In this document: positions 2,704 through 24,393 of the stretch, one piece after another
How positions within the stretch are numbered: the stretch's first letter is position 1
How the letters are laid out: each line of letters starts with the position of its first letter
Origin: a virus
DNA: 64,000 nt
Reading direction: 5' to 3' (one strand)
Virus record (IMG/VR): IMGVR_UViG_3300023176_007894
Coordinates: 46,946 to 110,945 of that record
Program-made: the position numbers and the translations under genes
Notes under the pieces: model-generated
Told to the model about the DNA's origin: nothing
Databases searched by the model: none
What the model saw: only the letters and a program-made list of their open reading frames with translations

Positions 2704-5170
2704 TTGAATATTTTACCGAGCCCCCGCTAAAACCAAATGAAATAGTTTGATCGTGGGTTAATTTTTTCCCCAAAATTAGCTCCGCCAATTTATTTTCGAT
2801 ATGGGTCTCTATTAGCCTTTTCAGTGGTCTGGCGCCCATTTTTTCTTCAGAAGAAAGATCTATAATCATTTGCACAAAAGATGCAGTCATTTTTATGGAT
2901 ATATTCTTGTTGGATAATTTATCCTCAATTTTACTGATCTCTAATTTTACTATTTTTTTCAGGTCTTCTTTTTTGAATTCTTCGAATACAACAATATCTG
3001 TTAGTCTGTTTATGAATTCTGGCCTAAAGAAACTTTTTAATTCGTCTTTGATTATATTCTGAGGGCGATTTTCTTCTTGTTGCGAAAAACCTATGGCTTG
3101 TTTTGAAAGCTTTTCTCCTCCGACATTGCCTGTTAGTATAATTATACAATTATTAAAATAAACTTTTCGACCAGAGTTATCTGTCACAAAGCCTTCTTCT
3201 AAAATTTGTAATAATATGTTTATTACGTCTGGATGGGCTTTTTCTATTTCATCGAAGAGTACGACACTGTAGGGATTTTTTCTTACTCTTTCTGTTAATA
3301 TACCCCCTTCTTCGTAACCTACATATCCTGGAGAGGCTCCTGTTAGCCTGCTTGCCGTAATTTTTTCAGAATATTCGCTCATATCTAATTGAATAAGATT
3401 TGAGGAGCTGCCATATATAAATTCAGATATGCATTTTGCGGTATATGTTTTTCCTGTTCCTGTTTTTCCAACAAGAAGGAAGCTTCCTACGGGCTTGTTT
3501 TTGTCTTTTAATCCTGACTTTGATCGAAGTATAGCTTGACTCATTTGTTCAAGTGCTTCTGATTGTCCAATAATCCTTGATTTAAGATTTTTGAATAACC
3601 CTAAAATCTTTTTAGAGTCTTTTGCGGACATTTCTGAAGCGGGAACTCCGGTTCTAGAGGATACAACTGCATAAATATCTTCCTTTGATACCTTGAATTT
3701 ATTTTTGATTGTTTCATTGGCCCATTTTGTAATGACCTGATCGTATCTTTCTAATAAAATAATTTGAGTATCTTCAATAATGCTGTAATCTTCATTTGTA
3801 GATTGCATAGTGGATTCTTTCATGGCTAACTTTTCAAGTTCTTTTTCTATGTTAACAGCTTCTTGGGGTCTCTGTATATTTTTAATTTTAACTTTTGACC
3901 CAGCTTGGTCCATGATATCAATTGCTTTATCTGGAAATTGTTTATCTAATATATATTTTTCAGATAGATCGATAATCAAATCTATGATTTCTTTAGAGTA
4001 AGATATGCTGTGGAAGCTTTCGTATTTTTTCTTTACTCCATTTAGTATTTTTCTTGTTTCTTCTTTAGTTGGCTCTTTTACTTTGATGGGTTGAAATCTT
4101 CTGTCCAGCGCTCCGTCTTTCATGATGCTTTTCTTGTACTCTTCTTGAGTGGTCGCTCCAATGCATTTAATTTCTCCTCTTGCAAGCAATGGCTTGAGTA
4201 GATTTGCTGCATCCATGCTACCCTCTGCGCTACCTGCGCCAACTAATGTATGTATTTCATCTATAAATAAAATTATACTCTGGTTCTTTTTTACTTCCTC
4301 TATGATATTTTTAAGCCTCTCTTCGAATTGACCTCTATATTTTGTACCAGCTATTAGTGAGCCTAAATCCAATGAGAATATAATTTTCCCTAAAAGAAAG
4401 TCTGGGCACTCGTTATGTACTATTTTTTGAGCGAGACCTTCTACGATAGCTGTTTTTCCTACCCCTGGATCCCCAAGTAGAATTGGATTATTTTTGGTTC
4501 TTCTGCATAAAATTTCGCAGACGTCACTTATTTCTTGCGTTTTGCCAACTATGTTATCGAATTTTCCCTGAGCTGCCTTTTCGCAGAAGTTGACTCCAAA
4601 TTTGTCGAGTGTGGGCGTATTTGTAGATATTGAGCTAACTTTAATTGATTTTTTAGGGCTAGGCTTTTCTTGTACATTTCTTTCGTTAGAAATATGTAAA
4701 TACTCTCTTACTTCTGCAATGACGTCGTCTTCCGAAGAGTTAAAAAGCCTAAAGTAAAATGGAACAGGAGAGTCTTCATATTTCAAGAGAGCCAATAGCA
4801 TATGTTCTAGACCAACATATTCATGTCCAAGCTTATAGCTTATTGATGCGGCAACTTTCAAAACCAAATGAAAGTGCTCGTCGTAAACGGGCTCATATGA
4901 TTCATCAAATTTGTCAGAATTTTTCTCATCTAAGAATTGCTCTTTGTTTTGGCGCTCGAGGGATTCTATAATTTCTTCCTTTAATGATTTCTGGTCTATA
5001 TTTAATAAATATAAAATCTCACTAAGTATTCCCGCGCTAAGTTTAACCATGCCGTAGAATAAATGTTCTAAGTTTACATAGTCGCTATAATACTCTCTTG
5101 CTATTTTTTTTGCTTCGTTGATTGCCTGTTGCGCTCTTGGCGTAAAGTTTGGCTTAGGTTTCATTGTCAT
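2684..5170 (-). CDS. clpC: ClpC/ClpA-type AAA+ unfoldase (Clp protease ATP-binding subunit)
   Basis: N-terminal Clp repeats (EHLFYGM, EHMLLALL), Walker A GDPGVGKT and GKTGTGKT, Walker B FIDEIH and LFDEIEKAH, short middle coil and IGF loop. The start may be the second Met (5164). Confidence 0.92.
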   Translation of the reverse strand: MTMKPKPNFTPRAQQAINEAKKIAREYYSDYVNLEHLFYGMVKLSAGILSEILYLLNIDQKSLKEEIIESLERQNKEQFLDEKNSDKFDESYEPVYDEHFHLVLKVAASISYKLGHEYVGLEHMLLALLKYEDSPVPFYFRLFNSSEDDVIAEVREYLHISNERNVQEKPSPKKSIKVSSISTNTPTLDKFGVNFCEKAAQGKFDNIVGKTQEISDVCEILCRRTKNNPILLGDPGVGKTAIVEGLAQKIVHNECPDFLLGKIIFSLDLGSLIAGTKYRGQFEERLKNIIEEVKKNQSIILFIDEIHTLVGAGSAEGSMDAANLLKPLLARGEIKCIGATTQEEYKKSIMKDGALDRRFQPIKVKEPTKEETRKILNGVKKKYESFHSISYSKEIIDLIIDLSEKYILDKQFPDKAIDIMDQAGSKVKIKNIQRPQEAVNIEKELEKLAMKESTMQSTNEDYSIIEDTQIILLERYDQVITKWANETIKNKFKVSKEDIYAVVSSRTGVPASEMSAKDSKKILGLFKNLKSRIIGQSEALEQMSQAILRSKSGLKDKNKPVGSFLLVGKTGTGKTYTAKCISEFIYGSSSNLIQLDMSEYSEKITASRLTGASPGYVGYEEGGILTERVRKNPYSVVLFDEIEKAHPDVINILLQILEEGFVTDNSGRKVYFNNCIIILTGNVGGEKLSKQAIGFSQQEENRPQNIIKDELKSFFRPEFINRLTDIVVFEEFKKEDLKKIVKLEISKIEDKLSNKNISIKMTASFVQMIIDLSSEEKMGARPLKRLIETHIENKLAELILGKKLTHDQTISFGFSGGSVKYSIKEELA

Positions 5171-7742: not shown

Positions 7743-8383
7743 ACTTCTACTTCCCATATCATTTTCTTAAATACTTCATAATTGACTCGAATATCATACA
7801 GTGCATCGTGTAATTTTTTCTCATCAAAGTCAACATCAAAATCTTTACAGCACTGTTTTAGATTGCAGCTTAATCCTCTTTCGATGAGATGATTGAGTCG
7901 ATATTGCCATGCCAAAAAGTTGTCATCTTTGTCTAAGCGAATACGTTTCTTGAGGGCTTTTGCAAGACAGAGTGTGTCTACAAGATGTTCAGTATAACTA
8001 AAATCTGTTTTTGCTTTTGGGTTAACGAGCTTACGATGAATGTTATGCATATAAACATCAAAGCCTAGAAGATTGTGTCCAACCTTTAGGTAGCTGTCGT
8101 CGTACAGATATTTCTCGAAGTGATCAAGCGCTGCTTTTGGGCAAGTTGCGCGCTTTTTGTATTTTGCTTCAGTAAAGCCTGTGATTTTCGCAGCATCAGG
8201 AGACACATTGAGCTCATCCCATTTGAGCCAATAATCTTTTTGCTCAACAATCTTGTTGTTTTCGATAACAAGGAATGCGAGTTGCCATGGCTTGTTGTGT
8301 GTAATTAGATTAAGGTTGCAAGTTTCGTAATCAAACAACAGATACTTTTTATTTTTTTGAAATCTAAGCAGTGATTCTTTCAT
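7739..8383 (-). CDS. DEDDh 3'-5' exonuclease (Pol III epsilon-like)
   Basis: ExoI FDYET, ExoII GHNLLGFD, ExoIII HDALYD. Confidence 0.88.
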   Translation of the reverse strand: MKESLLRFQKNKKYLLFDYETCNLNLITHNKPWQLAFLVIENNKIVEQKDYWLKWDELNVSPDAAKITGFTEAKYKKRATCPKAALDHFEKYLYDDSYLKVGHNLLGFDVYMHNIHRKLVNPKAKTDFSYTEHLVDTLCLAKALKKRIRLDKDDNFLAWQYRLNHLIERGLSCNLKQCCKDFDVDFDEKKLHDALYDIRVNYEVFKKMIWEVEV

Positions 8384-8886
8384 TTTAAGTCTGGTCTTTC
8401 TTCGTTGCCATAGTTTATTAATAACTCTTGGCCTTTTTTAATTTTTTGGTTTGTTTTATATCTGAATAAAAAATCTTTGTAGTCTATTGAACAGTCTACG
8501 TTGTTGCGTTCAGAGTGATTATATATCATTCCAAATCCTAAAACAGTTGCGGTAGAAAAAATTTCAGAAATATCTTCGTAACCTAGTTCTTTAATCTCTT
8601 CGAAAAAAGAATTTCGAACTTCTTCATCGTCAATCATCAATTTGAAAAAGCTCTGAAAGTTAAGGCGTTCGTTTTCTTCGTGTGATAGTTTATCATTGTA
8701 GAATAAAGTGAAGACATATCTTGCTAATTCTTTGTCTTGCATGTCTTTCGCGCATCCAGATATTATAAAATGACATTCTTCTATAATCTCTCCCGCGTCT
8801 AAGTCTTGGGCTGCAAAAACGCCCCTTCCTTTTAGGTTTGATTTCTTAACAACAATTTTTGTTGGAGCGATAAGTTCGTCTTTCAT
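8380..8886 (-). CDS. SET-domain lysine methyltransferase
   Basis: KGRGVFA, IYNHS and GQELLINYG motifs. Start 8886 from ATGA overlap. Confidence 0.85.
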   Translation of the reverse strand: MKDELIAPTKIVVKKSNLKGRGVFAAQDLDAGEIIEECHFIISGCAKDMQDKELARYVFTLFYNDKLSHEENERLNFQSFFKLMIDDEEVRNSFFEEIKELGYEDISEIFSTATVLGFGMIYNHSERNNVDCSIDYKDFLFRYKTNQKIKKGQELLINYGNEERPDLK

Positions 8887-9638
8887 ACTTTCTCCTTCCA
8901 GCTTTCGAAGCAAAATTCATTGCTGCCAAAGTGGTCTAAGTTTGGTTTTGATAGTGTTTTGTTTCCAAAGCTCCTTCCAGTTATACATTTATAGGTCTGC
9001 AAGGCGCTGACGTCTTTTTTGTTTTTATAATATATGCTTTTCGTTAGTTCTATTTTAAATTTTTCTCCAGCAAAAGCTCGGACCCTTTCACTTAACATAC
9101 GGTCAAACGGAAGAGAATTATCTTCAATGAAAAATACGGGGTCAAAGTGCGCAAAATTGGGTGTGCAGTTTGCGAATTTCATGGTATTGTTATAAATAAA
9201 CGAATCATAAAATGGTACTGCAAGCATAAGGTCTTTTTTGTTCCAGTGTTTTTTGAGTATTTTCGCATCTACCGAATTAAAATTATCTGTAAAAGCTTCG
9301 CTGAAAATAGAATTTAATCTTTTGCATCCGCTTGAGTTTTTTGCAAAAATAATAATTTTGTGGGCAGATTGATGCGATTCCTCTTTCGGGTTGACAGAAG
9401 CATTTTCTCTCATGTCTATGCGCAGCCCAAATATCAATTTAATATCCATTGATGACGCTATCTTGTTTGCTTGCAAGAATCCAGTAAGAGAATCTTCTAC
9501 TAAAATAACCTCTTTTAATCCGTTTTCTTTGGCGATTGAAAAAATACTATCTGCACCGCCTTCTTTCTGTGTAATTGGATTATCCAGAGTTAATATGCTT
9601 TTGCCGATAGAGAAGTGACTTTTAAATAACGCTAACAT
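8883..9638 (-). CDS. Stand-alone PHP domain of DNA polymerase III alpha
   Basis: FKSHFSIGKSIL, IKLIFGLRI and IIFAKNSSGCKRL match the DnaE N-terminal PHP domain. ATG 9638 is 7 nt after a -10 box. Confidence 0.8.
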   Translation of the reverse strand: MLALFKSHFSIGKSILTLDNPITQKEGGADSIFSIAKENGLKEVILVEDSLTGFLQANKIASSMDIKLIFGLRIDMRENASVNPKEESHQSAHKIIIFAKNSSGCKRLNSIFSEAFTDNFNSVDAKILKKHWNKKDLMLAVPFYDSFIYNNTMKFANCTPNFAHFDPVFFIEDNSLPFDRMLSERVRAFAGEKFKIELTKSIYYKNKKDVSALQTYKCITGRSFGNKTLSKPNLDHFGSNEFCFESWKEKV

Positions 9639-13544: not shown

Positions 13545-14816
13545 TTAAAGCAAGCTATACAATGGAGGCTCTCCATTGGAAATTTTAAAAGGTCTGCCGC
13601 TAGGAGAAAATAAAGTTTTAGATAAGCTTAATCCCATAGCATAAGCAATAGTTGCATTAATAGATTCTATGCCAACTCCATTTTCCTCAACATAATGTCC
13701 ACGCTTATCGGATTGCCCATATACTTGTCCGCCTTTAATTCCTCCTCCTGCAAAGAGCGCACTAAAAGAAGATGGATGATGATCTCTACCGTTTCTTCCC
13801 GATTTAATCTCTGGAGTTCTTCCAAATTCGCTAGCTACAACAACCATTGTGTCATTAAGTAGCCCTCTTGTATTTAAATCTTCGAGGAGCGCACTTAACC
13901 CTGAATCTAAGGTTGTAGCTTTGTCTTCTAGTGATCCAAAAACATCATTATGCATGTCCCATCCTCCATAAACAACCTCGACAAATCTCACTTTACTCTC
14001 TACTAATCTGCGAGCGAGCAAACAGCCTTGTCCGAAATTATTTTGTCCATATTTTTCTCTAATGGATTCTGGTTCTTTAGTTAAATCAAATGCATCAAGA
14101 TCTTTGCTCTTCATCAGTTTGATTGCATTATCGTAAAGATCGGAGTATGCTCGAATTTGTTTTTGAGGAAAAGATTTTCCGAAAGATTGATTAAATGATT
14201 TTGCAATATCAGTTCTTTGTTTATATGTTTCTTCGTCAAGATATGAGCTTTTTTTAATATTTTGAATACCTGCATTAGGGTTGCCTAATGGAAGTGGTCC
14301 ATATTTGCTCTCTAAAAATCCTGCCCCTAAAATTCCGCTTCCACCATTAATTTTAACATTATCTGGAAGAGTAAGGTTCAGTTTTTGAGACATTCTGCTA
14401 ACCCAGCTGCCCATGCTAGGATGAATAATTGTTCCTCGTTTTTGGTAAGAGGTGTGAAGTAAATAATTAGCTTGCTCGTGCGCACCTTGGTTTGTGTTTA
14501 TTGATCTAACTAGTGAAGCTAAATGCATTTGCTTAGATGTTTTAGGTAACCAGTGACCAAGCTGAATTCCGTCTGCAGAGGTATTAATAGCATTAGTTTC
14601 TCCCATAACGTCTTTGTTTTCGGGTTTTGGGTCAAATGTATCTATGTGGGTCATACCTCCAGCCATGTATAAAAATATAATATGCCTTGCCGTTGGTGTC
14701 CTTTTGGGTTGCTCTGATACTCCAAGCAGTTCTGAAGCGCTAAAAATTGCATTAACTCCGAGTAGAGATCCAGCTAGTTGCTTTGCAAAAATTCTTCGTG
14801 AAGATTGATTATTCAT
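13545..14816 (-). CDS. DUF1501 family protein, Tat signal
   Basis: SRRIFAK Tat motif; YMAGGMTHIDTFDPKP, GWDMH, SEFGRTP, GRDHHP, AGGGIKGG. Confidence 0.9.
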   Translation of the reverse strand: MNNQSSRRIFAKQLAGSLLGVNAIFSASELLGVSEQPKRTPTARHIIFLYMAGGMTHIDTFDPKPENKDVMGETNAINTSADGIQLGHWLPKTSKQMHLASLVRSINTNQGAHEQANYLLHTSYQKRGTIIHPSMGSWVSRMSQKLNLTLPDNVKINGGSGILGAGFLESKYGPLPLGNPNAGIQNIKKSSYLDEETYKQRTDIAKSFNQSFGKSFPQKQIRAYSDLYDNAIKLMKSKDLDAFDLTKEPESIREKYGQNNFGQGCLLARRLVESKVRFVEVVYGGWDMHNDVFGSLEDKATTLDSGLSALLEDLNTRGLLNDTMVVVASEFGRTPEIKSGRNGRDHHPSSFSALFAGGGIKGGQVYGQSDKRGHYVEENGVGIESINATIAYAMGLSLSKTLFSPSGRPFKISNGEPPLYSLL

Positions 14817-14825
14817 ATAAAGGTA

Positions 14826-14830
14826 TACAC
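14826..14830 (-). promoter_or_regulatory. GTGTA putative late promoter (DUF1501)
   Basis: 9 nt before ATG 14816. Confidence 0.6.
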
Positions 14831-16108
14831 TTATTTGATTAATTCTTCAATGACTCTGCCTCCGTCAACAATTTCCATAGGTCTATCACCAGGAGCCATC
14901 AACTCTTTATCTGCATTTATTCCAATTTGATTGTAAACTGTTTTTGCATAATCCATTGGTGAAACGGGATTATCTTCTACGGTGGTTGCAAAAGCATCAC
15001 TAGATCCATAAACAAAGCCTTGTTTGATTCCTCCTCCGGCAAGAACGCTACTGAAAACTCTGGGCCAATGGTCTCGGCCAGCATCTTTATTAATTTTAGG
15101 AGTTCTTCCAAATTCACTATTCACCATCACTAGGGTGCTCTCGAGAAGACCTCGATCATCTAAATCAGAAATAAGAGATGCTAGCGCTTGGTCGAGAATT
15201 GAACCCTGCGTGCTGAATGCGTTTTCTATATTTTGATGATGATCCCAGCCTCCATAGGTTAATGTTACCAATCTGACTCCTGCCTCAACAAGCCTTCTTG
15301 CCAAAAGCATTCTCATGCCAGCTTGATTTTTGCCATATTTTTCTTTAATTGACTCGCTTTCTTTTGATATATCAAAGGCTTCTCTAGCTTTAGGGCTGCT
15401 TATCATTTGGTATGCATTTTGATAAAATGTATCCATTGAAGATAATGCATCACTTTTTTCGAAAGAATTAAAATCTGATTCTATCATCTGTAAAAGACTT
15501 CTTCTTGAAGAAAATCTATTAAAGTCAATTCCTCCTGGAAGCTCTAGGTCTCTGACTTTAAAGTTAGAGTTGGCGGGGTCGCTTCCAAGGCTAAAGGGAG
15601 AATATCTAGAGCTTAGATAACCAGAGCCTGCATACTGATTGGGCTGATTAGGAATGCAAACGTAAGGTGGTAAATTTTCTCTGCCTCCTAATTCGTGAGA
15701 TATAACAGAACCATAACTTGGATACTGTATCGCTGGGCTAGGCTTGTGGCCATTGAACATATTATGCGTGCCTCTTTCATGCGCTGCTTCTCCATGGGTT
15801 AGGCTTCTTACTACAGATATTTTATCTGCAATGTTGGCCATGTTTTTCATATTTTCGCTAAATTGAATACCTGGAATTTTTGTATCAATTGCCGAGAATG
15901 GTCCTCTGTATTCAAGCGGAGCATATGGTTTAGGATCCCAAGATTCTTGATGCGCCATTCCTCCTGGTAGATATATATGTATAATTGATTTTGCAGGCCC
16001 ATCTATTGTTGGGTAATATTTTGCTTTTGCAATAGATTCTTGTTCAAGTAAATATGGAAGTGAAAGAATGCCTGCGCTTCCTATTTTAATAAAGTTTTTT
16101 CTATTCAT
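14831..16108 (-). CDS. DUF1501 family protein (second subtype)
   Basis: NRKNFIK Tat-like motif; LPGGMAHQESWDPKP, GWDHH, SEFGRTP, GRDHWP. Confidence 0.9.
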   Translation of the reverse strand: MNRKNFIKIGSAGILSLPYLLEQESIAKAKYYPTIDGPAKSIIHIYLPGGMAHQESWDPKPYAPLEYRGPFSAIDTKIPGIQFSENMKNMANIADKISVVRSLTHGEAAHERGTHNMFNGHKPSPAIQYPSYGSVISHELGGRENLPPYVCIPNQPNQYAGSGYLSSRYSPFSLGSDPANSNFKVRDLELPGGIDFNRFSSRRSLLQMIESDFNSFEKSDALSSMDTFYQNAYQMISSPKAREAFDISKESESIKEKYGKNQAGMRMLLARRLVEAGVRLVTLTYGGWDHHQNIENAFSTQGSILDQALASLISDLDDRGLLESTLVMVNSEFGRTPKINKDAGRDHWPRVFSSVLAGGGIKQGFVYGSSDAFATTVEDNPVSPMDYAKTVYNQIGINADKELMAPGDRPMEIVDGGRVIEELIK

Positions 16109-18141
16109 TGTATAAATATAAATTCATGAGTGTTTAATAATATCCAAGATACATGTTTAAATCCATTTTTTTTATCTATAATGGGCTTTAACTCTTTTAG
16201 CTCTTTTGGGTTTGGTTGACGACCTAATATTGATAAGAATGCACTAACAATCTGATCGTTGATTGTTTTTTCTCCTTCAATAAATTTCATAAAATCTGCA
16301 TTTTTATTGTTTAGTATATTTTTTTCAACAAAACCGTTTAATAAATTTAAGACTTGAGTTGTGTTTGGCTCAAAGTTGCTGTTTTCGATTTGCTCTTTAT
16401 CGCTTCCCCCAAATTGTCTTATCAGGTGTCCTCCTGGGGCTGGATATGGTAAGTAGCTACTTCGTATTAAGGATTTGTCTTTAAATTTTTTATTATCATT
16501 TTTTTCTTCTGATAATATCTGTAATAAATTTCGATTTTCTGGATGCATTTCGACAAGTCTTTTGAAGTCGTTATATATTGCTGTAGAGTTTAAGTCTTTG
16601 TATCTATTGTAAATGATTGAGTAGTCTTGATTATTTTGAATATAGAGTCTTTCTTTGGAGTCGATATTATTATATACTAGCGTAACTAAAGAGTCCCAGA
16701 TTTGTTCGCCAGTCATTCTGCGCAATGGGGGTCCGGCGAAATGAAAATTTTCAATACTGGCGAAGTCTTCCTTGAAGCTTTTGCGCGAAAAAAGATCTGT
16801 GCTTAAAAGTATCCTTTTGAATTCTTTGGTGTCAAAGTCTAGGCTTATTATCAATTTTTCAATGAACTTTAATAACTCTGGGTTGCTTGCAATTGTTTCA
16901 TCGGTCATGGTGTCGATTGGTTCAATTAATCCAATTCCGAAAATTCTTTTCCATAATCTGTTGCTAATAACTGTTGCAAATCTTGGATTGTCTTCGCTTG
17001 TGATCCAATTCGCAAAAATAATTCTGCTATTATCATTATCTTTTGGTAATGAAATATTTGGAGTAAATATTGATTTAGCGTAAACCAAATCTCCTGGATC
17101 GCCATCGCTCTCTGCAAAATCTTTAGGAAGTTTGATTTTCCCTGTGCCGTTGTTCTCTATTCCAAATTGCAGGGAATCTCTAACTTGGTTTCTCCAGTTA
17201 TTAAAAAGTCCTGATTTGGGATCTCCATCTGTTTGTATTGCCCTGCTTAATTTACCGATTTTTTTACTTTGTTCGTTAATTCTTACTGCCCCAATGCCTG
17301 ATGTAAAAGCCGTCATTTCATAAAATTGTTTTTGAGTCCATTTATCAAACGGGTGATTGTGGCACATTGCGCACTGAAGTCTTGTTCCTAGGAATATTCT
17401 AATTGTATGCGATAAATGATCTGGCTGCATGCCTCTGTCTCTGAGGTAAAAACTGATTGCGGCACTATCATTTCCGCCGTACAGTTCACCGTTACTAGCT
17501 ATCAAATCTCTGACCATTTCGTCATATGGCTGATTTGATTCTAGACTCCTGCGAATCCATTGTCTGTATGCAACCCCGAGATTAATGTTGGTTCCGTCTA
17601 GTCTGTCTTTTATTCTTAGCAGGTCGCTTAACCAGTTTAATTCATTATTTATGTATCCAGGGTGATCTAATAATTCTTTTATTAATTTTTGTTTTTTCTT
17701 CGGGTCTCTACTCTCGGTATACTTAGTGAGTTCGTTTTGAGTTGGAATGCGCCCTAATATGGTTAAATATATTCTTCTTGTAAATTCATAATCATCTGTT
17801 TTTTGCGTTTTAGAAACTTTGAGCGTTTTGAGTTTTGCATTTACTAAGGAATCAATGTGGCTTGCAAAAATTGCTATAGATTTTTCATTAACAGGGGTTG
17901 GTAATTTTTTTAGGCCGCCATGTCTATTTGTGGCATGGTAAAGCTCAACTAAATTTTGAGTTTCAAGCGTAAAAAAACTAATCGGTACTCGAAAAAGCTG
18001 TAGGTCGCTTTCTTTCTTTAATAATACATGTGTCGCGTTCGCTTCGATAATTTGTGCCTTTATTACGCGTCCGTCTTTGTATACTATATCTCCGCCGAAA
18101 CAAAGCAGGGAAGAGGTTAAAAATAATAATAAATGTTTCAT
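16105..18141 (-). CDS. DUF1549/DUF1553 (PSCyt2/PSD1) protein with CxxCH haem motif
   Basis: Signal peptide MKHLLLFLTSSLLCFG; FTRRIYLTILGRIPT, FLGTRLQCAMCHNHPFDKW, NRLWKRIFGIGL, RRMTGEQIWDS, LLNTHEFIF. Confidence 0.88.
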   Translation of the reverse strand: MKHLLLFLTSSLLCFGGDIVYKDGRVIKAQIIEANATHVLLKKESDLQLFRVPISFFTLETQNLVELYHATNRHGGLKKLPTPVNEKSIAIFASHIDSLVNAKLKTLKVSKTQKTDDYEFTRRIYLTILGRIPTQNELTKYTESRDPKKKQKLIKELLDHPGYINNELNWLSDLLRIKDRLDGTNINLGVAYRQWIRRSLESNQPYDEMVRDLIASNGELYGGNDSAAISFYLRDRGMQPDHLSHTIRIFLGTRLQCAMCHNHPFDKWTQKQFYEMTAFTSGIGAVRINEQSKKIGKLSRAIQTDGDPKSGLFNNWRNQVRDSLQFGIENNGTGKIKLPKDFAESDGDPGDLVYAKSIFTPNISLPKDNDNSRIIFANWITSEDNPRFATVISNRLWKRIFGIGLIEPIDTMTDETIASNPELLKFIEKLIISLDFDTKEFKRILLSTDLFSRKSFKEDFASIENFHFAGPPLRRMTGEQIWDSLVTLVYNNIDSKERLYIQNNQDYSIIYNRYKDLNSTAIYNDFKRLVEMHPENRNLLQILSEEKNDNKKFKDKSLIRSSYLPYPAPGGHLIRQFGGSDKEQIENSNFEPNTTQVLNLLNGFVEKNILNNKNADFMKFIEGEKTINDQIVSAFLSILGRQPNPKELKELKPIIDKKNGFKHVSWILLNTHEFIFIQ

Positions 18142-18142
18142 G

Positions 18143-19807
18143 TTATTGTTTGATATGTTTTCCGTCTGTAAGTCCTGCGCTGTATGCATTTAAATCTATG
18201 CCAACTTTTTTACTTGCATCGAAAATTAATTTTAAATAATACTCTGGCGATCCATTGTCTTGCGCATGATATTCATCGCTAAAAACAATTCCGCTTTTGT
18301 TTTTTATTTCTGATCTATTTTCCAAGAAATGGTATTTTTTGAGATTATCGTCTTTGAGGTAACCTTGTCCTTGCCAAGCGTTTTCGACAAATTCTTTAAA
18401 AGATCTTGAAAATACTTTGTCTCCAACTTGAAACATAATTCCTCTATATAAGCCTTTATGTGAATCCAGTTTTGATTTAAGTTGGTTAAGATCTTTTGTA
18501 TAATTTTCTTCGGGGTTCTTGTTGAAATTTGGCAAATGGTAGGAAGGTTGAGCTTCATCTTGAAAAACAAAAGCCAAAACATTGTCTTTGTCTGCAGCTT
18601 GCGAAAAAAATCGAAGCGTTCTTTCTCCTGAGCTATCTATTATGCTGACTCTTTTAGAATAAAGAGATTCGTCATTGTTATAATATGGAAGAAGCGCATC
18701 TTTAAGTATTGTGTTTTTCATAATCTCGAGCTGCTTTCTTGTTTTTAATATACTTCCACTACCATCGACATGCATCATGATGTGAAGCTGGCCATTCTTT
18801 GGCAGGTCTTTGTAGTAGACTCCACCATTGCCCCCACCTAATCCGTAGCCATTTTTTTTCCCAATTCCTAATTTTTCAATGATATATCCTTGTGTTAGTC
18901 CAGCTGCACCTCCTGCACCAGCTCCTCCTATTAATCCTCCGACTCCACTTGATTCATATAGCTCCGAAGTTTGATCATTGTATCCAGAACCAATGCCTCC
19001 TAGTGCAGGAACAGCTTTGCCGTTTGACATGGCTTCACCTATTCCTGCGCTTAACCCAGCTCCTGATCCTGCGCCTGCGCCTATTGCAGAAGAGCCGATT
19101 CCTGCCCCTACTCCCTGACTTGGGTAATTATATGCATAAAGTTCTCCAGCCTTTGACGATTTAGAATTTTTTATTTCTCCACTATTTAATTTAAAATCTC
19201 CGAGCTCTGAATTATCTTGGTCGGGAACTAAATTCATTTGTGAAAAATCAACACCCGCACTATCTTCGTTATTTCTTTTTTTATTTAAATTGTTTTGGGC
19301 TATGTTTTTATCTTCAAGGCCAATATCTTTGAGCCTCCTATTTAGTAGTCCAGGATCGGCTTCGATTGACTCTATAGAATTGCCAACCACATCATGACGA
19401 CGATGGCCAAAATTAACATTATCTCTAGTATGAATTGAATTTTCATTTAAAATTGTATTGTTGGTTCTTAAATTTATATCATCAGTATATACAGTGCCAC
19501 TATAATCTTTTGTGTTTATTGTTGATATTGCTCTGCTGTTATATACATGTTCTTCATTTGCCTGTTTTTCTCGTATGGATCCATGTAAATAATCTTTATA
19601 TATAATATCTTTATTTTCATGAATTATTCTATCAACATATACTATTTCTTTGGAAAAATTTGATTCGTGCTTTGATTGATCTCTCTCGACAAAATCAATT
19701 GATTCGTTAGGGGATTTTGTAATTAATGAAATTATCAGTATAAGAAATAAGATAAAAATAATGTATGCAGAAATAAGATTTGAGAGCGCGACGTTTTTGT
19801 TTTTCAT
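18143..19807 (-). CDS. Membrane-anchored Gly-rich protein with C-terminal vWA-like domain
   Basis: N-terminal TM helix, long Gly-rich linker and MIDAS-like DxSxS (HVDGSGS). Confidence 0.6.
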   Translation of the reverse strand: MKNKNVALSNLISAYIIFILFLILIISLITKSPNESIDFVERDQSKHESNFSKEIVYVDRIIHENKDIIYKDYLHGSIREKQANEEHVYNSRAISTINTKDYSGTVYTDDINLRTNNTILNENSIHTRDNVNFGHRRHDVVGNSIESIEADPGLLNRRLKDIGLEDKNIAQNNLNKKRNNEDSAGVDFSQMNLVPDQDNSELGDFKLNSGEIKNSKSSKAGELYAYNYPSQGVGAGIGSSAIGAGAGSGAGLSAGIGEAMSNGKAVPALGGIGSGYNDQTSELYESSGVGGLIGGAGAGGAAGLTQGYIIEKLGIGKKNGYGLGGGNGGVYYKDLPKNGQLHIMMHVDGSGSILKTRKQLEIMKNTILKDALLPYYNNDESLYSKRVSIIDSSGERTLRFFSQAADKDNVLAFVFQDEAQPSYHLPNFNKNPEENYTKDLNQLKSKLDSHKGLYRGIMFQVGDKVFSRSFKEFVENAWQGQGYLKDDNLKKYHFLENRSEIKNKSGIVFSDEYHAQDNGSPEYYLKLIFDASKKVGIDLNAYSAGLTDGKHIKQ

Positions 19808-19838
19808 GATTTAAATGGTAGCTTTCGGAACAATTATT

Positions 19839-19843
19839 TACAC
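19839..19843 (-). promoter_or_regulatory. GTGTA putative late promoter (vWA-PSD1-DUF1501 operon)
   Basis: Directly after the terminator T-run; 31 nt before ATG 19807. Confidence 0.55.
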
Positions 19844-19869
19844 AAAAAAGCCGCCCGAAGGCGGCTTTT
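19844..19869 (-). terminator. Intrinsic terminator (possibly bidirectional)
   Basis: GCCGCC-TTCG-GGCGGC-TTTTTT on the minus strand, directly followed by GTGTA. Confidence 0.85.
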
Positions 19870-19891: not shown

Positions 19892-20131
19892 CTATCCCTT
19901 ATCAGAGCTAGGCTTTAAGAGCGCTACAAGCAGAAGGAGCGTAATGACCCCTGCAAGTGAAGCGCCTTCTCCAACGAACCCTAGTACGACATCCTGAAGG
20001 TTGCCGATGACGTTAATAGGAGCTCCTTCGCCAAAGACGACTTGAGCTACGACCAATAGGCCGATAATCGACAGGAGAACACTTGTGACTCCTCCTGCGT
20101 ACGTTTTAATCGTATCGATTGTATTTTTCAT
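19892..20131 (-). CDS. Small membrane protein
   Basis: 79 aa with two hydrophobic segments, co-transcribed with the porin-like gene. Confidence 0.65.
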   Translation of the reverse strand: MKNTIDTIKTYAGGVTSVLLSIIGLLVVAQVVFGEGAPINVIGNLQDVVLGFVGEGASLAGVITLLLLVALLKPSSDKG

Positions 20132-20135
20132 AAAT

Positions 20136-20792
20136 TTAGAAGTTTACAGAGATTCCAAGACCAATAACGTATTCTTCAGAAATGAGATCTGAGTCAACTC
20201 TTGTAAGGTCAAAAGAAGCTACTGCATTTTCAGAAATTTTTCTGGAAACACCAAGTCCTGTAGAATAGTATGTTTCGTTTTGAGAATTAGAGAGATCTGT
20301 ATTTCCTACAGAGCCTCCGATTGCCAAATCTCCAACACCTACATCAATAGAGTGGGATAGACCAAGCTCATAGGTATACAACGAATCTTCTAGATTGCGG
20401 AAGACGGATAATTTTGGCGATAGAAATGTGTTAATTTCAAAACTGATCTCTGCCTCCAATAAAGTATTACCCGGAACATCTTCCACGTGATTTAATCCAA
20501 GATAAGCTTTAAAAAGTTCATTAGCAAAGCTTTTAGAGGCTCCTCCTGCGATAATATACGAGTCAGATCCGCTGCTGGATACTGATTGATTTGTAAATGC
20601 TCCAACAGAATAGTTTAGACCCAGCACTTCTCCATTTACTCCAACCGAAGCCTGAATTGCTTCTTCTGAATTTAGGGCTCCTCGAAAAAAGTAGTCTGAG
20701 GCGTACCGAGTGCTTAGCGAATAATTTTCTGCCGAAGCGACGTTAATAAAAACTCCCAAAAGGGTAGTAAGGATTAGTTTTGTTGTCTTCAT
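20136..20792 (-). CDS. Outer-membrane beta-barrel, Gcw_chp/TorF-like putative porin
   Basis: Signal peptide, YASDYFFRG...AIQ N-terminal motif, amphipathic strands and terminal Phe. Confidence 0.72.
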   Translation of the reverse strand: MKTTKLILTTLLGVFINVASAENYSLSTRYASDYFFRGALNSEEAIQASVGVNGEVLGLNYSVGAFTNQSVSSSGSDSYIIAGGASKSFANELFKAYLGLNHVEDVPGNTLLEAEISFEINTFLSPKLSVFRNLEDSLYTYELGLSHSIDVGVGDLAIGGSVGNTDLSNSQNETYYSTGLGVSRKISENAVASFDLTRVDSDLISEEYVIGLGISVNF

Positions 20793-20808: not shown

Positions 20809-20837
20809 ATTATACTAATTTGATAAGCAAATGTCAA
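20809..20837 (-). promoter_or_regulatory. Perfect-consensus sigma70 promoter
   Basis: TTGACA-17-TATAAT. Confidence 0.9.
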
Positions 20838-21324: not shown

Positions 21325-21984
21325 TTAATTTTTAAATAAAAACGGTCTCCACTCTTCTCGTTCCTTTTGAAAGGCGTGAAAAAAATGCCAAGGAGTGCAG
21401 GGTTTTAATTCTTCACCTTTGTAGTTTTTATATGGATATAATGCCGCTTTTTTTGAATTGCAGCTATGGCATGTTATTGTTACATTGAAACTATCTTTTG
21501 TTCCGCCCATGCTTTTGGGGTATATGTGTTCTATACTCATATCTTTTATCGTTTTCTTTTCTCCGCAAATCTGGCAGCGACCTTTATATCTATCATAAAG
21601 ATACCTTAGGTTCGGTTTTTCTTTTGTTTGGTAAACCCATTTTGCTGTAGTCAATAAAATTGTTGGTACTGGATATAGCCTGTTGCATGCATTTAGGAAT
21701 GGTTGAGACTCGTAATATGTTGAGCGATTTGGGTTTATCCATTCTTCCCATGTTAGAGGTTCACCACTTGCGCATAATACTTTCACTGTGTTAAGTTTAT
21801 CTTGGTTTGATCCACAGGATATTAATTTCCTTACTCCTTCTTTGGCCGTTGTTATATTTATGGGCGTCCAGAAGTGAGATAAAATTAAAACAATTCTATC
21901 CTTGCTACTGCAACAATATGAAGAAGAATTAATTATTTTTCTTTTTGTCGTGATGACCGCCTTTTGAGGAATTAGGCTTTTCAT
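21325..21984 (-). CDS. HNH endonuclease
   Basis: RCQICG...SIEHIYPKSMGG...NVTITCHSCNSKK. Start uncertain. Confidence 0.8.
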   Translation of the reverse strand: MKSLIPQKAVITTKRKIINSSSYCCSSKDRIVLILSHFWTPINITTAKEGVRKLISCGSNQDKLNTVKVLCASGEPLTWEEWINPNRSTYYESQPFLNACNRLYPVPTILLTTAKWVYQTKEKPNLRYLYDRYKGRCQICGEKKTIKDMSIEHIYPKSMGGTKDSFNVTITCHSCNSKKAALYPYKNYKGEELKPCTPWHFFHAFQKEREEWRPFLFKN

Positions 21985-23356
21985 GGGTATAGCCCATTTT
22001 CTTCATTGCAAGGTGATCTTCGTAGGTTTTGGCCATATAGGATTTTCCTGTCTTTGGATCATACATAGCATGGGGTTTGAATTTTTCATGCTCTGCAGAT
22101 TGAGCTTTTTTGATTGCGTCTTTTGATGGATAATCTTTATCTCCAGGCTTTGCTGGCTTATAATTTTTGCCCATGCGTTTCTTTTTGTCTTGAATGTTTT
22201 TCCAGAGACTAGAATAATTCTTTTTTTCTTTTGTTTCGGAGGCTAAGCTACCATACATAAGGTAATCGTATACAGCCTCAATAAAGTGTTCGGCTTTAGA
22301 TATTTTATCTTGCGCCCAGGCCATCAGGTTATAGTCTTCAGGCATTTCTGAAATTTTATTTCTTATAGCTTCTGATTGCATAGATATCTTTGCGAGTTGA
22401 CCTTCCGCCATACTTTTCTCGTGGTCTTCCTCTTGGGAGTTTTGTTCTGGCATATCATTTTCCATGTCGGAGTAGTCTTCGTCCATGTACGATCCTTTCG
22501 TATAGTCTGTAACTGATTTTTTGGACTCCCACATTTTGCAAGACCAATATCTCGCTTTCGTTTTTGGTCCGGGATTCGCGCAATTATGACGAGCCCTGAA
22601 GTTTTTTCGTCTATTTGGGTCATCCCTTTTGATCTCCATATTGGGATCTCCAAAATTTACTTTCACGACATTACCTTTTTCGTTTTTTACATAAACAGAA
22701 AATTTCTTCGGTCCTTTTGGGGTTCTAAAAGGCTTGTTTAGTTTTTTGCCTTTGTTCGATTCTGCCGCCCAAATTTCTTCGTCAATGATTTCCTCGAATC
22801 CTAGTTGGTCAACTTCGATAAAAATCGTACTCCACATTTCTTCGGTAAATTCAGGATCTTCTTCAAGCTTGTAATTATAGATATCTAATTTCGCTTCAAT
22901 CAAGTCCTCTTCCGTGAAGATATTTTCTTCGTCCCTCACTCCGTCATCTATTAATACGGCTGCAGACGCTTTAGCTACATCTTGATCTGCTTTTCGATAG
23001 CTGTCTTTCACTTTTCCTCCTCTAACCATTTTTAAAAACATGTTAACTCTCGCCATTGCCCATTGACCTCTAGTTTTTCCTGGGCGATGACTGGAAGAAA
23101 ATGCGCCTGCCCCCCTGCGATATACTTTCTTAAGCTGAGAAAGGGTGACTTTTTTGCTATATTTTTTGTTGTGCTCAGAAACCTTTGATTTTAAGGATTC
23201 TAAAACTTTATCTGAAAAAGTTATTTTGCTTCCCTTTTCTCCTGCGCTTCCAGGTTTGTTTTTGTCTGAACCTTTTTTTTGTTCGGATTTTTTTGCGGGT
23301 GTTTGCGCTGAACTTTTTGGCCCAGGACGTTTAGCTGAGTGAGATTCGTTTTCCAT
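21929..23356 (-). CDS. Multi-domain basic/acidic phage protein (possible internal head protein)
   Basis: Chain of small phage domains: LKKVYRRGAGAF..QWAMARVN, VKVNFGDP..FRARHNC..ARYWSC, MAEGQL..WAQDKI, FKPHAMYDPKTG. Confidence 0.6.
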   Translation of the reverse strand: MENESHSAKRPGPKSSAQTPAKKSEQKKGSDKNKPGSAGEKGSKITFSDKVLESLKSKVSEHNKKYSKKVTLSQLKKVYRRGAGAFSSSHRPGKTRGQWAMARVNMFLKMVRGGKVKDSYRKADQDVAKASAAVLIDDGVRDEENIFTEEDLIEAKLDIYNYKLEEDPEFTEEMWSTIFIEVDQLGFEEIIDEEIWAAESNKGKKLNKPFRTPKGPKKFSVYVKNEKGNVVKVNFGDPNMEIKRDDPNRRKNFRARHNCANPGPKTKARYWSCKMWESKKSVTDYTKGSYMDEDYSDMENDMPEQNSQEEDHEKSMAEGQLAKISMQSEAIRNKISEMPEDYNLMAWAQDKISKAEHFIEAVYDYLMYGSLASETKEKKNYSSLWKNIQDKKKRMGKNYKPAKPGDKDYPSKDAIKKAQSAEHEKFKPHAMYDPKTGKSYMAKTYEDHLAMKKMGYTHEKPNSSKGGHHDKKKNN

Positions 23357-23358
23357 GG

Positions 23359-24393
23359 TTATTTATTACACAATAAATTGTAATCATTTTCGTACATTTT
23401 TTTAACAAGACCCTTGAAGTCTGTTTTTCTCTTCCAGCCTAATTCTGATTCCGCCAAAGAGGGGTCTCCGCATAGTTTGTGAACTTCTGCAGGTCTGAAA
23501 AACTTGGGATCTACTTCAAAAATTAATTGGCCATCTTCAGTATAATATTTTTCATTTTCACATTCTCCGGATTTTTTATATTTGATTCCTGCAAAGAAAA
23601 GCGTTTGATCTAGGAATTCTCTAACTGTGTGCATTTCGCCGCTAGCAAGTACGTAGTTTTTTGGGGATGATTGATTAAGCATAAGCCAAACCCCTTCCAT
23701 GAAATCTTCTGCATCGCTCCAGTCTCTTTTCGCCTCTATGTTTCCCATTCTCAGGGGCTCAAATTCTTTATTTGATTCTAGGGAAATTTTTATTTTTGCA
23801 ATTGTGTGACTAATTTTTCTCGTAACAAAATCCAAACCTCTTCTGGTTCCTTCGTGGTTAAACAACCATCCTTGTACTGAGTAAAGGCCGTAAGACTCTC
23901 TGTAAACCCTTACTATGTGTCTTGCAGCACACTTTGCTGCTCCATAAGGGCTTTGAGGTCTTAACGGATGCTCTTCATTTTGAGGTGTGCAGATCACATC
24001 TCCAAATTCCTCACTACTTCCTGCATTGTAGAATCTACAATGAGGAGAAAATCTTCTAATTGATTCTAGGATATGTAATACCGAATTAGAGTCTGTTTCC
24101 CAAGTTTGTATGGGGTAGTTCCAGCTGCCAGCGACAAAAGATTGGGCAGCAAAGTTAATAAAATAATCAGGTTGTATATCTATTACTACATCACGCATAC
24201 TGTGAGCGTCATTTAAGTCCATGTCTATTAATTTAAATCTACTCTCATTTTCAAGATGCAAGATGTTTTCGTGGTTTTTCACGCTTAGTCTTCTTGCGGT
24301 TCCGTAGATTTTGTGTTCGGTATTTTTTAAGAGATAGTCTACCATGTGGCTACCGTCTTGTCCTGTTATTCCAGTTACTATAATTTTTTTCAT
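23359..24393 (-). CDS. gmd: GDP-mannose 4,6-dehydratase
   Basis: TGITGQDGS, AAQSFV, SSEEFG, SPYGAAK, LFNHEG, KRDW and FRPAEV. Confidence 0.93.
   Translation of the reverse strand: MKKIIVTGITGQDGSHMVDYLLKNTEHKIYGTARRLSVKNHENILHLENESRFKLIDMDLNDAHSMRDVVIDIQPDYFINFAAQSFVAGSWNYPIQTWETDSNSVLHILESIRRFSPHCRFYNAGSSEEFGDVICTPQNEEHPLRPQSPYGAAKCAARHIVRVYRESYGLYSVQGWLFNHEGTRRGLDFVTRKISHTIAKIKISLESNKEFEPLRMGNIEAKRDWSDAEDFMEGVWLMLNQSSPKNYVLASGEMHTVREFLDQTLFFAGIKYKKSGECENEKYYTEDGQLIFEVDPKFFRPAEVHKLCGDPSLAESELGWKRKTDFKGLVKKMYENDYNLLCNK
23367..23371 (-). promoter_or_regulatory. GTGTA putative late promoter
   Basis: 10 nt before ATG 23356. Confidence 0.6.

What the first reader, a model, noticed from the sequence alone, without database searches (positions are those of the whole stretch)
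13545..19843. Phage-encoded PVC-type periplasmic module: vWA anchor + DUF1549/1553 haem protein + two DUF1501 proteins, under phage-type promoters
Seen: four tightly packed co-directional genes. They encode a TM-anchored Gly-rich vWA protein (DxSxS), a signal-peptide DUF1549/DUF1553 protein with CAMCH haem motif, and two different DUF1501 proteins with Tat-type signals and intact GG..DPKP, WDxH, EFGRTP and RDH motifs. The block has the same AT-rich composition as the phage core. GTGTA motifs sit at 19839 and 14826, the same motif that precedes the portal and fibre genes. Known: DUF1501 plus DUF1549/1553 pairs are greatly expanded in Planctomycetes/Verrucomicrobia, have no established function, and DUF1501 is alkaline-phosphatase/sulfatase-like. 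Inference: the phage has domesticated a complete exported metalloenzyme/cytochrome complex and expresses it late. It may remodel the host envelope, assist lysis, scavenge nutrients or modify virions. I am not aware of this module being characterised in phages. A minimal viral copy would be a tractable way to find the function of a major uncharacterised PVC gene family.
Basis: partly seen in the sequence, partly recalled or inferred. Interest (0 to 1): 0.85.

Follow-up and report, generated by a model that had tools for sequence, protein, structure and literature searches.

The report
Phage-borne PVC envelope enzyme module
A large uncultured marine phage, and at least 70 related viral contigs, carry host-derived genes for an exported enzyme pair (DUF1549/DUF1553 protein plus DUF1501 enzyme) that is hugely expanded but unexplained in Verrucomicrobia and Planctomycetes. 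This gives a small, conserved version of that system to study.

Summary
Four co-directional minus-strand genes at 13545-19807 encode a TM-anchored protein with a vWA-like fold, a PSCyt2/PSD1 (DUF1549/DUF1553) protein with CAMCH, and two different DUF1501 enzymes. They sit in a real tailed-phage genome.

The "four-gene complex" reading needs splitting into three parts.
- **Core pair.** The core is the canonical host pair PSCyt2/PSD1 then DUF1501 (P0002 + P0004). In 74 of 78 IMG/VR loci fetched, a PSCyt2/PSD1 gene is followed by a P0004-type DUF1501. Many of these lie beside an RNR-beta gene 89-94% identical to the window's. dN/dS is about 0.05, the family-invariant residues I listed are all kept, and GC3 matches the phage.
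- **P0003.** It is an orthologue (60-73% identity) of the DUF1501 of a different, highly conserved PVC module. It lies between the pair here; one relative has its homologue elsewhere.
- **vWA protein.** It is a phage-lineage gene also found without the module and at varying positions.

An outer-membrane beta-barrel gene lies just upstream (20136-20792), and directly upstream of the pair in about 18 relatives.

The likely host is a marine Verrucomicrobiota lineage near SAG AG-908-P09. Function is unproven. My best guess is periplasmic nutrient-ester scavenging during infection.

I found no paper on these domains in viruses. This scan has already noted phage DUF1501 arrays on other DNA, but without the partner gene.

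The parts
20809..20837 (-). Perfect sigma-70-type consensus (TTGACA-17-TATAAT) upstream of the beta-barrel gene
   Evidence: 12 of 12 matches. Consensus match only; function not shown.
20136..20792 (-). Exported outer-membrane beta-barrel (porin-like) protein, P0155, 218 aa. Its homologue sits directly upstream of the PSD1 gene in about 18 related phage contigs.
   Evidence: Sec signal and C-terminal ...SVNF read. ESM Atlas 0.97 to TorF/Gcw_chp porins. Of 13 homologues, 5 hit Pfam Porin_4 (best 8e-8) and 4 hit Phage_OMP PF24653. The window copy itself has no Pfam hit. Synteny.
19892..20131 (-). Small 79-aa protein with two hydrophobic helices (P0156), unknown role
   Evidence: translation; not studied further
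19846..19869 (-). GC-rich hairpin (AAAAGCCGCC-TTCG-GGCGGCTTTT) with a T-run: terminator-like, separating the beta-barrel unit from the module
   Evidence: Read directly. The consensus scan did not list it.
19839..19843 (-). GTGTA motif 36 nt upstream of the P0001 ATG
18143..19807 (-). P0001, 554 aa: N-terminal TM anchor (about nt 19715-19774), Gly-rich linker, C-terminal vWA-like domain with DxSGS (nt 18146-18835). A phage-lineage gene, not an obligate part of the module.
   Evidence: Translation. 203 representative clusters. AlphaFold model pLDDT 89. vWA matches Z 7-9.3. BFVD hit to a VWFA protein. Found with and without the module.
16105..18189 (-). P0002: Sec-exported PSCyt2 (DUF1549) + PSD1 (DUF1553) protein. 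Probable start at 18141. CAMCH at about nt 17359-17373.
   Evidence: Host partners have the same two-domain architecture.
14831..16108 (-). P0003: DUF1501 enzyme. Its start overlaps the P0002 stop (ATGA). Orthologue of the DUF1501 of the conserved PVC four-gene module.
14826..14830 (-). GTGTA motif 14 nt upstream of the P0004 ATG, in the 14-nt gap after P0003
13545..14816 (-). P0004: Tat-exported (SRRIFAK) DUF1501 enzyme, the cognate partner of P0002. Convergent with RNR-beta (ends at 13540).

Best explanation
**Shown**
- The window is part of a large tailed phage with no close isolate.
- It belongs to a family of low-GC marine viral contigs. One related contig is 211 kb and rated 100% complete by CheckV.
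- Many members carry a host-derived gene pair: a Sec-exported PSCyt2/PSD1 protein followed by a Tat-exported DUF1501 enzyme.
- In the one phage pair where synonymous sites are not saturated, both genes show strong purifying selection. In the window the pair has phage-like composition.
- The window's copy has an extra DUF1501 (P0003), an orthologue of the DUF1501 of a different PVC module, lying between the pair.
- A membrane-anchored vWA-like phage protein lies upstream, and an outer-membrane beta-barrel gene further upstream.

**Inferred**
- During infection of a marine Verrucomicrobiota host, the phage exports these proteins into the envelope.
- The beta-barrel admits a solute. The PSD1 protein binds or presents it. 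The CxxCH may hold a haem or a metal.
- The DUF1501 enzymes belong to the alkaline-phosphatase/sulfatase superfamily (Pfam clan placement, from memory). They have no CxPxR formylglycine motif, and a near-invariant Thr is a possible nucleophile. I propose they hydrolyse an organic phospho- or sulfo-ester.
- This would sustain or boost nutrient supply (most plausibly phosphate) for phage DNA synthesis, in the manner of known phage phosphate-acquisition genes.
- The vWA protein is most likely an independent phage envelope protein.
For: **Phage identity**
- Tail sheath and fibres; split PolIII, RNR, DnaB, primase and RecA-like genes.
- Only distant matches to isolates.

**Conservation in phages**
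- Relatives L118-L135 share core genes at 64-92% identity and carry P0002/P0004 homologues at 57-60% and 71-76%.
- 134 IMG/VR stretches encode a PSD1 relative, and 78 loci were fetched. In 74 of the 78 a P0004-type DUF1501 follows the PSD1 gene, mostly within about 100 nt and at most about 1.8 kb away.

**Selection**
- dN/dS 0.052 (DUF1501) and 0.053 (PSD1), against 0.019 for RNR-beta, on the one pair not saturated at synonymous sites (L122-L124).
- All listed family-invariant H/D/E/R residues are kept in both enzymes.

**Host origin of the pair**
- In five Verrucomicrobiota loci examined, the best or near-best P0004 homologue (47-51%) lies immediately downstream of a P0002-like gene (37-40%).
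- The tree puts the window in a 100%-supported phage clade. Its sister group holds a second phage type plus the SAG AG-908-P09 gene.
- The SAG pair is 70% and 57% identical to that second phage type.

**Other points**
- P0003 is 65-73% identical to Verrucomicrobiota orthologues and groups with them.
- GC3 is phage-like.
- Beta-barrel evidence and synteny.
- The pair lies next to nucleotide-synthesis genes (RNR) in many relatives.
Against: - No substrate, activity or haem binding has ever been shown for DUF1501 or PSCyt2/PSD1. There is no solved relative by sequence, and the only paper that analyses these modules says the function is unknown.
- The superfamily placement of DUF1501 rests on Pfam clan knowledge plus sub-threshold sulfatase and phosphodiesterase matches.
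- The nutrient-scavenging role is argued from context only.
- Beta-barrel adjacency holds in about 18 of about 45 loci of types A and B, and could be mere shared ancestry.
- P0003's signal has R-K instead of R-R.
- Host phylum: for P0004, Planctomycetota homologues are nearly as similar (45-49%) as Verrucomicrobiota ones (49-53%).
Confidence: 0.45

Rival explanations
1. Envelope remodelling or superinfection exclusion. The exported enzymes, the vWA protein and the beta-barrel would alter host surface or periplasmic structures (receptor, glycan, capsule) to block secondary infection, or to prepare the envelope for release.
For: - All six genes from 20792 to 13545 encode exported or membrane proteins.
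- From general knowledge, phage-encoded OMPs and vWA/MIDAS adhesion-type domains are often surface-interaction factors.
- The phage also carries many glycan-modifying genes: GDP-mannose dehydratase and a 999-aa multi-glycosyltransferase.
Against: - The pair is copied from a host family present in 28-116 copies per genome. That pattern looks like substrate-diverse metabolism, not envelope biogenesis.
- The vWA gene is not consistently linked to the pair.
Confidence: 0.2
2. Redox or electron-transfer module. The CxxCH protein would be a genuine c-type cytochrome, and the DUF1501 partner a redox-coupled enzyme that keeps host energy metabolism or periplasmic oxidation running during infection. 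This is the reading of Kamneva et al. 2012 for the cellular modules.
For: - CAMCH is invariant in phage and host partners.
- Tat export of the enzyme suggests a cofactor loaded in the cytoplasm.
- Kamneva 2012 proposes electron transport.
- A PSCyt1 multihaem gene lies next to the closest host pair.
Against: - The phage protein lacks PSCyt1, the only domain here with recognised cytochrome c similarity.
- The phage carries no cytochrome maturation genes in the window.
- The DUF1501 core resembles hydrolases, not oxidoreductases.
Confidence: 0.2
3. All four genes form one obligate complex tethered to the inner membrane by the vWA protein.
For: - The vWA gene is immediately upstream of the PSD1 gene in the window and in six related loci: L211, L217, L223, L224, L225 and L232.
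- It is directly downstream of the pair in L243 and L248.
- Its N-in/C-out topology would put the MIDAS domain in the periplasm.
Against: - A 97-kb relative has the vWA gene but no DUF1501 or PSD1. A 211-kb contig rated complete has it with one DUF1501 and no PSD1.
- Most pair-bearing loci have no vWA gene within 4 kb.
- About 40 more distant phage contigs have the domain and share no other window gene in the 8-kb flanks.
- No vWA homologue lies near the host pairs.
Confidence: 0.1
4. Neutral hitch-hiker or assembly chimera of host DNA.
For: The genes are clearly of cellular (PVC) origin.
Against: - The same junctions occur in contigs from many different IMG/VR records.
- GC3 is fully phage-like, while the host loci compared have 43-60% GC.
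- dN/dS is about 0.05.
- The invariant residues I listed are all intact.
Confidence: 0.02

Closest known systems
Two-gene PSCyt/PSD1 + DUF1501 loci of Planctomycetes, Verrucomicrobia and Lentisphaerae (Kamneva et al. 2012, PMC3542564; PSCyt domain groups in He et al. 2017, PMC5615132)
   Same: - Same domains, same gene order (PSD1 protein then DUF1501) and the same Sec and Tat signals.
- Host homologues at 37-40% and 47-53% identity have the same PSCyt2+PSD1 architecture without PSCyt1.
   Different: - Carried on a phage chromosome with phage composition.
- Diversified into at least three viral types.
- In the window the pair is split by a second DUF1501.
- The phage proteins are at the short end of the size range (594-714 aa in the four copies measured, against 730-890 aa in the three host partners measured).
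Conserved four-gene PVC module: DUF1501 / PPC-type protein / PSCyt1-Big_2-PSCyt2-PSD1 / PSCyt1-WD40 (Kamneva et al. 2012)
   Same: P0003 is 60-73% identical to the DUF1501 of this highly conserved orthogroup. In cells this gene has a large PSCyt/PSD1 gene about 4 kb downstream.
   Different: The phage has only the DUF1501 gene. None of the other three module genes is present in the window.
Phage auxiliary metabolic genes for nutrient acquisition (e.g. cyanophage pstS/phoA and the cyanophage outer-membrane beta-barrel family, Pfam PF24653)
   Same: Host-derived, exported, kept under selection, and placed among nucleotide-metabolism genes. A porin-like phage OMP lies next to it.
   Different: A different protein family with an unknown substrate, and a PVC host rather than a cyanobacterial one. 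No regulatory link to phosphate is shown.
Phage DUF1501 arrays noted earlier in this scan on other DNA (e1-5768669, e1-5928050, e1-5898658)
   Same: Tat-exported DUF1501 genes of PVC origin in large uncultured marine phages.
   Different: Those arrays were reported to lack the PSCyt/PSD1 partner and were assigned to Pirellulaceae hosts. Here the partner is present and conserved, and the host signal points to Verrucomicrobiota. I did not re-examine those loci.
vWA / integrin I-like MIDAS domains
   Same: Predicted fold matches at Z 7-9.3, with DxSGS at the end of beta-1 plus a conserved Thr and Asp in positions suited to a MIDAS.
   Different: No Pfam VWA model hits it. The family is largely viral. 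It has an N-terminal TM anchor and a Gly-rich linker.

Membership tests
DUF1501 (PF07394) | Full-length match to the family HMM above the gathering score | tested here: met
   P0004 366 bits and P0003 389 bits, against a cut-off of 27
DUF1501 (PF07394) | Family-invariant polar residues (H, H, WDxH, D, EFGR, RDH) | tested here: met
   All kept in both proteins, in a 59-sequence phage and host alignment
DUF1501 (PF07394) | Twin-arginine export signal | tested here: inconclusive
   P0004 has SRRIFAK. P0003 has NRKNFIK (R-K), while its relatives have RR. No signal-prediction program was run.
PSCyt2/PSD1 (DUF1549/DUF1553) proteins | Both Pfam domains above their cut-offs, in order, with the conserved CxxCH | tested here: met
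   138.7 and 113.4 bits. C273, C276 and H277 are invariant in 9 phage and host sequences.
PSCyt2/PSD1 (DUF1549/DUF1553) proteins | Covalent haem at CxxCH | not testable with these tools
   Needs haem staining or mass spectrometry. As far as I found, it has never been shown for the family.
Canonical PSD1 then DUF1501 gene pair | Enzyme gene immediately downstream of the partner gene on the same strand | tested here: met
   Met in 74 of 78 viral loci and in 5 host loci. In the window the pair is interrupted by P0003.
Kamneva four-gene PVC module | DUF1501 together with a PPC-type protein, PSCyt1-Big_2-PSCyt2-PSD1 and PSCyt1-WD40 genes | tested here: not met
   Only the DUF1501 orthologue (P0003) is present. 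P0002 lacks PSCyt1 and Big_2, and no WD40 or PPC gene was found in the block.
vWA / MIDAS domain | Rossmann-like vWA fold | tested here: met
   Model pLDDT 89. About 40 of the top 50 VIA-align matches are vWA domains: Z 7-9.3, rmsd 3.1-3.9, 139-177 residues aligned. Foldseek against the PDB gave nothing at E <= 1e-3.
vWA / MIDAS domain | DxSxS motif after beta-1 | tested here: met
   D24 invariant, and S26, G27 and S28 nearly invariant, in 56 sequences. They lie at the end of strand 18-24 of the model.
vWA / MIDAS domain | Match to a Pfam VWA model | tested here: not met
   No VWA family was found for P0001 or for any of 56 homologues.
Phage auxiliary (host-derived) gene | Cellular origin, embedded among phage genes, recurrent in related phages, under selection | tested here: met
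Outer-membrane beta-barrel (Porin_4 / Phage_OMP / Gcw_chp) | Signal peptide, beta-rich body, C-terminal aromatic residue and an HMM match | tested here: inconclusive
   The window copy has the signal and terminal Phe but no Pfam hit. Of 13 homologues, 5 hit Porin_4 and 4 hit Phage_OMP. ESM Atlas scored 0.97 to TorF/Gcw_chp clusters. No fold model was made.

The most novel reading that the evidence does not exclude
A widespread family of large marine phages installs a complete trans-envelope acquisition route in its Verrucomicrobiota host: a porin-like outer-membrane barrel, a PSCyt2/PSD1 binding or redox protein, and DUF1501 hydrolases. If so, the DUF1501/PSD1 pairs, among the largest orphan gene families of Planctomycetes and Verrucomicrobia, would be substrate-specific periplasmic nutrient-ester scavenging systems. 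The phage copy would be the minimal version in which to show it.
Probability: 0.3. Interest if true: 0.85.

Novelty: new variant of a known kind. Interest (0 to 1): 0.7.

Why it matters
DUF1501 and PSCyt/PSD1 genes number tens to over a hundred per genome in many Planctomycetes and Verrucomicrobia: I counted 28-116 DUF1501 matches in each of five genomes. They have had no assigned function since they were described in 2004-2012.

A phage keeps only genes that pay their way during infection. A conserved, strongly selected two-gene version in at least 70 viral contigs therefore has three uses:
- It suggests the pair works as a self-sufficient unit.
- It offers small, cloneable proteins for enzymology and structure work.
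- It adds a new class of phage auxiliary gene in marine PVC hosts, whose viruses are almost unknown.

It also gives a host-linking marker for a large uncultured phage family.

Tried and rejected
- **Whole genome.** None is held for the window.
- **GenBank phages.** P0003 against INPHARED gave no match at all, so no DUF1501 close enough to match P0003 was found in the 50,697 deposited phage records.
- **Tail sheath.** The window's tail sheath was not found in five IMG/VR contigs that carry a P0003-type gene. They are fragments, so this says little.
- **P0001 fold.** The single-sequence fold of the C-terminal domain failed (pLDDT 37) and was redone with an alignment. Foldseek against the PDB with the good model found nothing at E <= 1e-3. 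Only VIA-align showed the vWA signal.
- **Sequence and profile searches.** PDB searches for DUF1501 and PSD1 gave nothing significant. NCBIfam gave nothing.
- **The look-up of encoding contigs.** I used IMG/VR scans instead.
- **AU test.** A test of whether all phage P0003-type copies form one clade did not finish in about 450 s, so one or several acquisitions of P0003 remains open.
- **dN/dS with the window.** Pairs involving the window itself are saturated at synonymous sites. Only L122-L124 is informative.
- **Literature.** Searches on DUF1501, DUF1553 and PSCyt2 together with phage or viral terms found nothing relevant.
- **Rejected.** I rejected a chimeric assembly and a four-protein obligate complex. 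I did not accept "late expression" as shown.

Full report
**1. Is it there?**

Yes. One search lists four minus-strand ORFs at 13545-14816, 14831-16108, 16105-18189 and 18143-19807. They have overlapping or 14-nt junctions.

Pfam:
- P0004 (13545-14816) and P0003 (14831-16108) both match DUF1501 (E 3e-109 and 5e-116).
- P0002 (16105-18189) matches PSCyt2/DUF1549 plus PSD1/DUF1553.
- P0001 (18143-19807) matches nothing.

There are three corrections:
- P0003's signal reads R-K where its relatives have R-R.
- P0002 most likely starts at M17, just after the P0001 stop, which gives a normal Sec signal.
- The vWA assignment is not visible to HMMs.

**2. Is it a phage, and is the block really part of it?**

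The window encodes several phage-type functions:
- A split PolIII-alpha with separate PHP and exonuclease genes, RNR alpha and beta, DnaB, primase, a RecA-like protein and an HNH endonuclease.
- Tail fibres and a tail sheath distantly related to PaBG/phiKZ-type jumbo phages.
- No isolate is close.

Block composition equals that of the core genes. GC3 is 0.25-0.31 for the block and 0.27-0.37 for the core, while the nearest host loci have 43-60% GC.

Eighteen IMG/VR contigs (L118-L135) share the window's replication genes at 64-92% identity. Several repeat the same junctions. A wider scan shows the RNR-beta/DUF1501 convergent junction in about twenty contigs from different IMG/VR records. A chimera is excluded.

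**3. What the four genes are**

*(a) P0002 + P0004 are a canonical host pair.*
- Five Verrucomicrobiota genomes each hold 28-116 DUF1501 matches.
- In the five host loci I fetched, the best or near-best P0004 homologue (47-51%) lies immediately downstream of a P0002-like PSCyt2+PSD1 gene (37-40%).
- The three host partner proteins scanned have the same two-domain architecture.
- A PSD1 alignment matched 134 IMG/VR stretches, and 78 loci were fetched. In 74 of these a P0004-type DUF1501 follows the PSD1 gene.
- The loci fall into three tiers, given as P0002 / P0004 identity:

| Type | P0002 identity | P0004 identity |
|---|---|---|
| A | 55-61% | 69-76% |
| B | 38-40% | 52-57% |
| C | 30-33% | 41-44% |

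- Types A and B both occur beside an RNR-beta gene 89-94% identical to the window's, so they belong to the same phage family.
- In the DUF1501 tree, the window and seven type-A copies form a 100%-supported clade. Its sister (99%) holds type B plus a gene of the marine Verrucomicrobia single-cell genome AG-908-P09.
- That SAG pair is 70% (DUF1501) and 57% (PSD1) identical to type B.

*(b) P0003 belongs to a different orthogroup.*
- It is 65-73% identical to Verrucomicrobiota proteins and 60-66% identical to Planctomycetota proteins. In cells, a large PSCyt/PSD1 gene lies about 4 kb downstream of the orthologue.
- This matches the highly conserved module described by Kamneva et al. 2012.
- P0003 groups with Verrucomicrobiota sequences with moderate support, and pairs with one related phage copy, L123, at 100%.
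- Twelve other viral copies (55-61%) branch outside the cellular clade. Whether all the viral copies share one origin is unresolved.

*(c) P0001 is a phage protein.*
- Its C-terminal 230 residues define a family of 203 representative clusters with no Pfam model.
- With a 56-sequence alignment the domain folds confidently (pLDDT 89).
- VIA-align against 48,161 PDB chains returns almost only vWA domains at Z 7-9.3, including integrin beta I-like, Sec24 trunk, Ku, Rpn10 and VWF A1.
- The conserved D-x-S-G-S sits at the end of beta-1.
- BFVD gives unnamed viral proteins (1e-12) and a virus VWFA protein (2e-4). ESM features point the same way.
- Linkage to the pair is loose. It is present in a 97-kb relative with no DUF1501 or PSD1, and in a 211-kb contig rated complete with one DUF1501 and no PSD1.
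- It lies next to the pair in only about 8 of about 45 type A/B loci.
- About 40 more distant phage contigs carry the domain and share no other window gene in the 8-kb flanks.

**4. An extra neighbour**

The gene upstream, 20136-20792, encodes a 218-aa protein with a Sec signal, a beta-rich body and a C-terminal ...SVNF.
- The ESM Atlas places it at 0.97-0.99 with viral clusters and with TorF/Gcw_chp porins.
- Of 13 homologues, 5 hit Pfam Porin_4 (best 8e-8) and 4 hit the cyanophage outer-membrane barrel family PF24653.
- In about 18 relatives this gene lies directly upstream of the PSD1 gene.
- In the window it has a perfect sigma-70-type consensus upstream. It is followed by a 79-aa two-helix protein and a strong hairpin, after which the GTGTA motif and P0001 begin.

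So 20837-13545 is a 7.3-kb island of six exported or membrane proteins.

**5. Selection**
- For the one pair not saturated at synonymous sites (L122-L124), dN/dS is 0.052 for the DUF1501, 0.053 for the PSD1 protein and 0.019 for RNR-beta.
- All family-invariant polar residues are kept: H53/57, H110/113, D289/287, H291/289, D306/304, E332/330, R335/333, R345/344, D346/345 and H347/346, given as P0003/P0004 numbering.

**6. The GTGTA motif**
- It is depleted overall: 34 sites against 61 expected.
- In at least 10 genes it lies 14-17 nt before the ATG on the coding strand, with no Shine-Dalgarno. These include the sheath, a fibre gene, P0004, a ClpB-like gene and the DUF5824-like gene.
- In relatives it also precedes the PSD1 gene by about 15 or 35 nt.
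- It is a real phage signal, and other notes on this genome flag it separately. Because it also precedes non-structural genes, "late" is not established.

**7. How it probably works**

The shown facts are host-derived origin, export signals, conservation and selection.

The inference is that the phage supplies the infected cell with an extra periplasmic enzyme system, possibly fed by its own outer-membrane barrel.
- From Pfam clan knowledge, DUF1501 belongs to the alkaline-phosphatase/sulfatase superfamily. Here only sub-threshold sulfatase and phosphodiesterase matches support that.
- It lacks a CxPxR formylglycine motif, and a near-invariant Thr (T76/T79) could be the nucleophile.
- That profile, Tat export as in PhoD and PhoX, and the position beside RNR make phosphate-ester scavenging the most attractive guess. 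It remains a guess.

**8. Novelty**
- The cellular modules are known, but their function is not.
- I found no paper on them in viruses and no DUF1501 match in the GenBank phage collection.
- Earlier notes of this scan report phage DUF1501 arrays on other DNA without the partner.
- New here are the conserved partner-plus-enzyme pair, its breadth in one phage family, and the Verrucomicrobiota link.

Noticed in passing
window 1204-53078, both strands: GTGTA is under-represented overall (34 sites against 61 expected). In at least 10 genes it sits at a nearly fixed 14-17 nt before the ATG with no Shine-Dalgarno, which suggests a phage-specific promoter giving very short or no leaders. In relatives, gene cassettes inserted between the PSD1 and DUF1501 genes carry their own copy.
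   Followed up: partly
window 8380-8913 (-): A SET-domain protein (putative lysine methyltransferase) is encoded between the PHP and exonuclease genes of a split PolIII-alpha operon. Homologues occupy the same place in some relatives (L121, L123, L127).
   Followed up: no
window 2684-5170 (-): Full-length ClpB/ClpC-like double AAA+ chaperone (828 aa) carried by the phage and conserved in relatives at 43-68% identity.
   Followed up: no
window 21929-23356 (-); L122, L124, L125, L129, L130: In five relatives, pieces homologous to this 475-aa DUF5824-like protein form a separate roughly 245-280-aa gene inserted between the PSD1 and DUF1501 genes. That is the position P0003 occupies in the window, so this junction looks like a hotspot for cassette insertion.
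   Followed up: partly
window 36487 and 37273 (within fibre gene 35703-39215): Two identical stretches of at least 60 nt lie 786 nt apart inside the 1170-aa tail-fibre gene, indicating an internal duplication.
   Followed up: no
window 23359-24393 and 43399-46398 (-): GDP-mannose 4,6-dehydratase, and a 999-aa fusion of GT25, GT34-like and other glycosyltransferase domains with an FkbM methyltransferase. Together these give the phage a substantial glycan-modification capacity.
   Followed up: no
L113 (SAG AG-908-P09, contig 40) and L018: This marine Verrucomicrobia single-cell genome holds both the closest cellular PSD1/DUF1501 pair to the type-B phage pair (57% and 70% identity) and the most similar P0003 orthologue (73%). 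It is a candidate host lineage for the whole phage family.
   Followed up: partly
window 19892-20131 (-): A 79-aa protein with two hydrophobic helices lies between the beta-barrel gene and the terminator. Its role is unknown; a small membrane protein of the holin or pinholin kind is conceivable.
   Followed up: no
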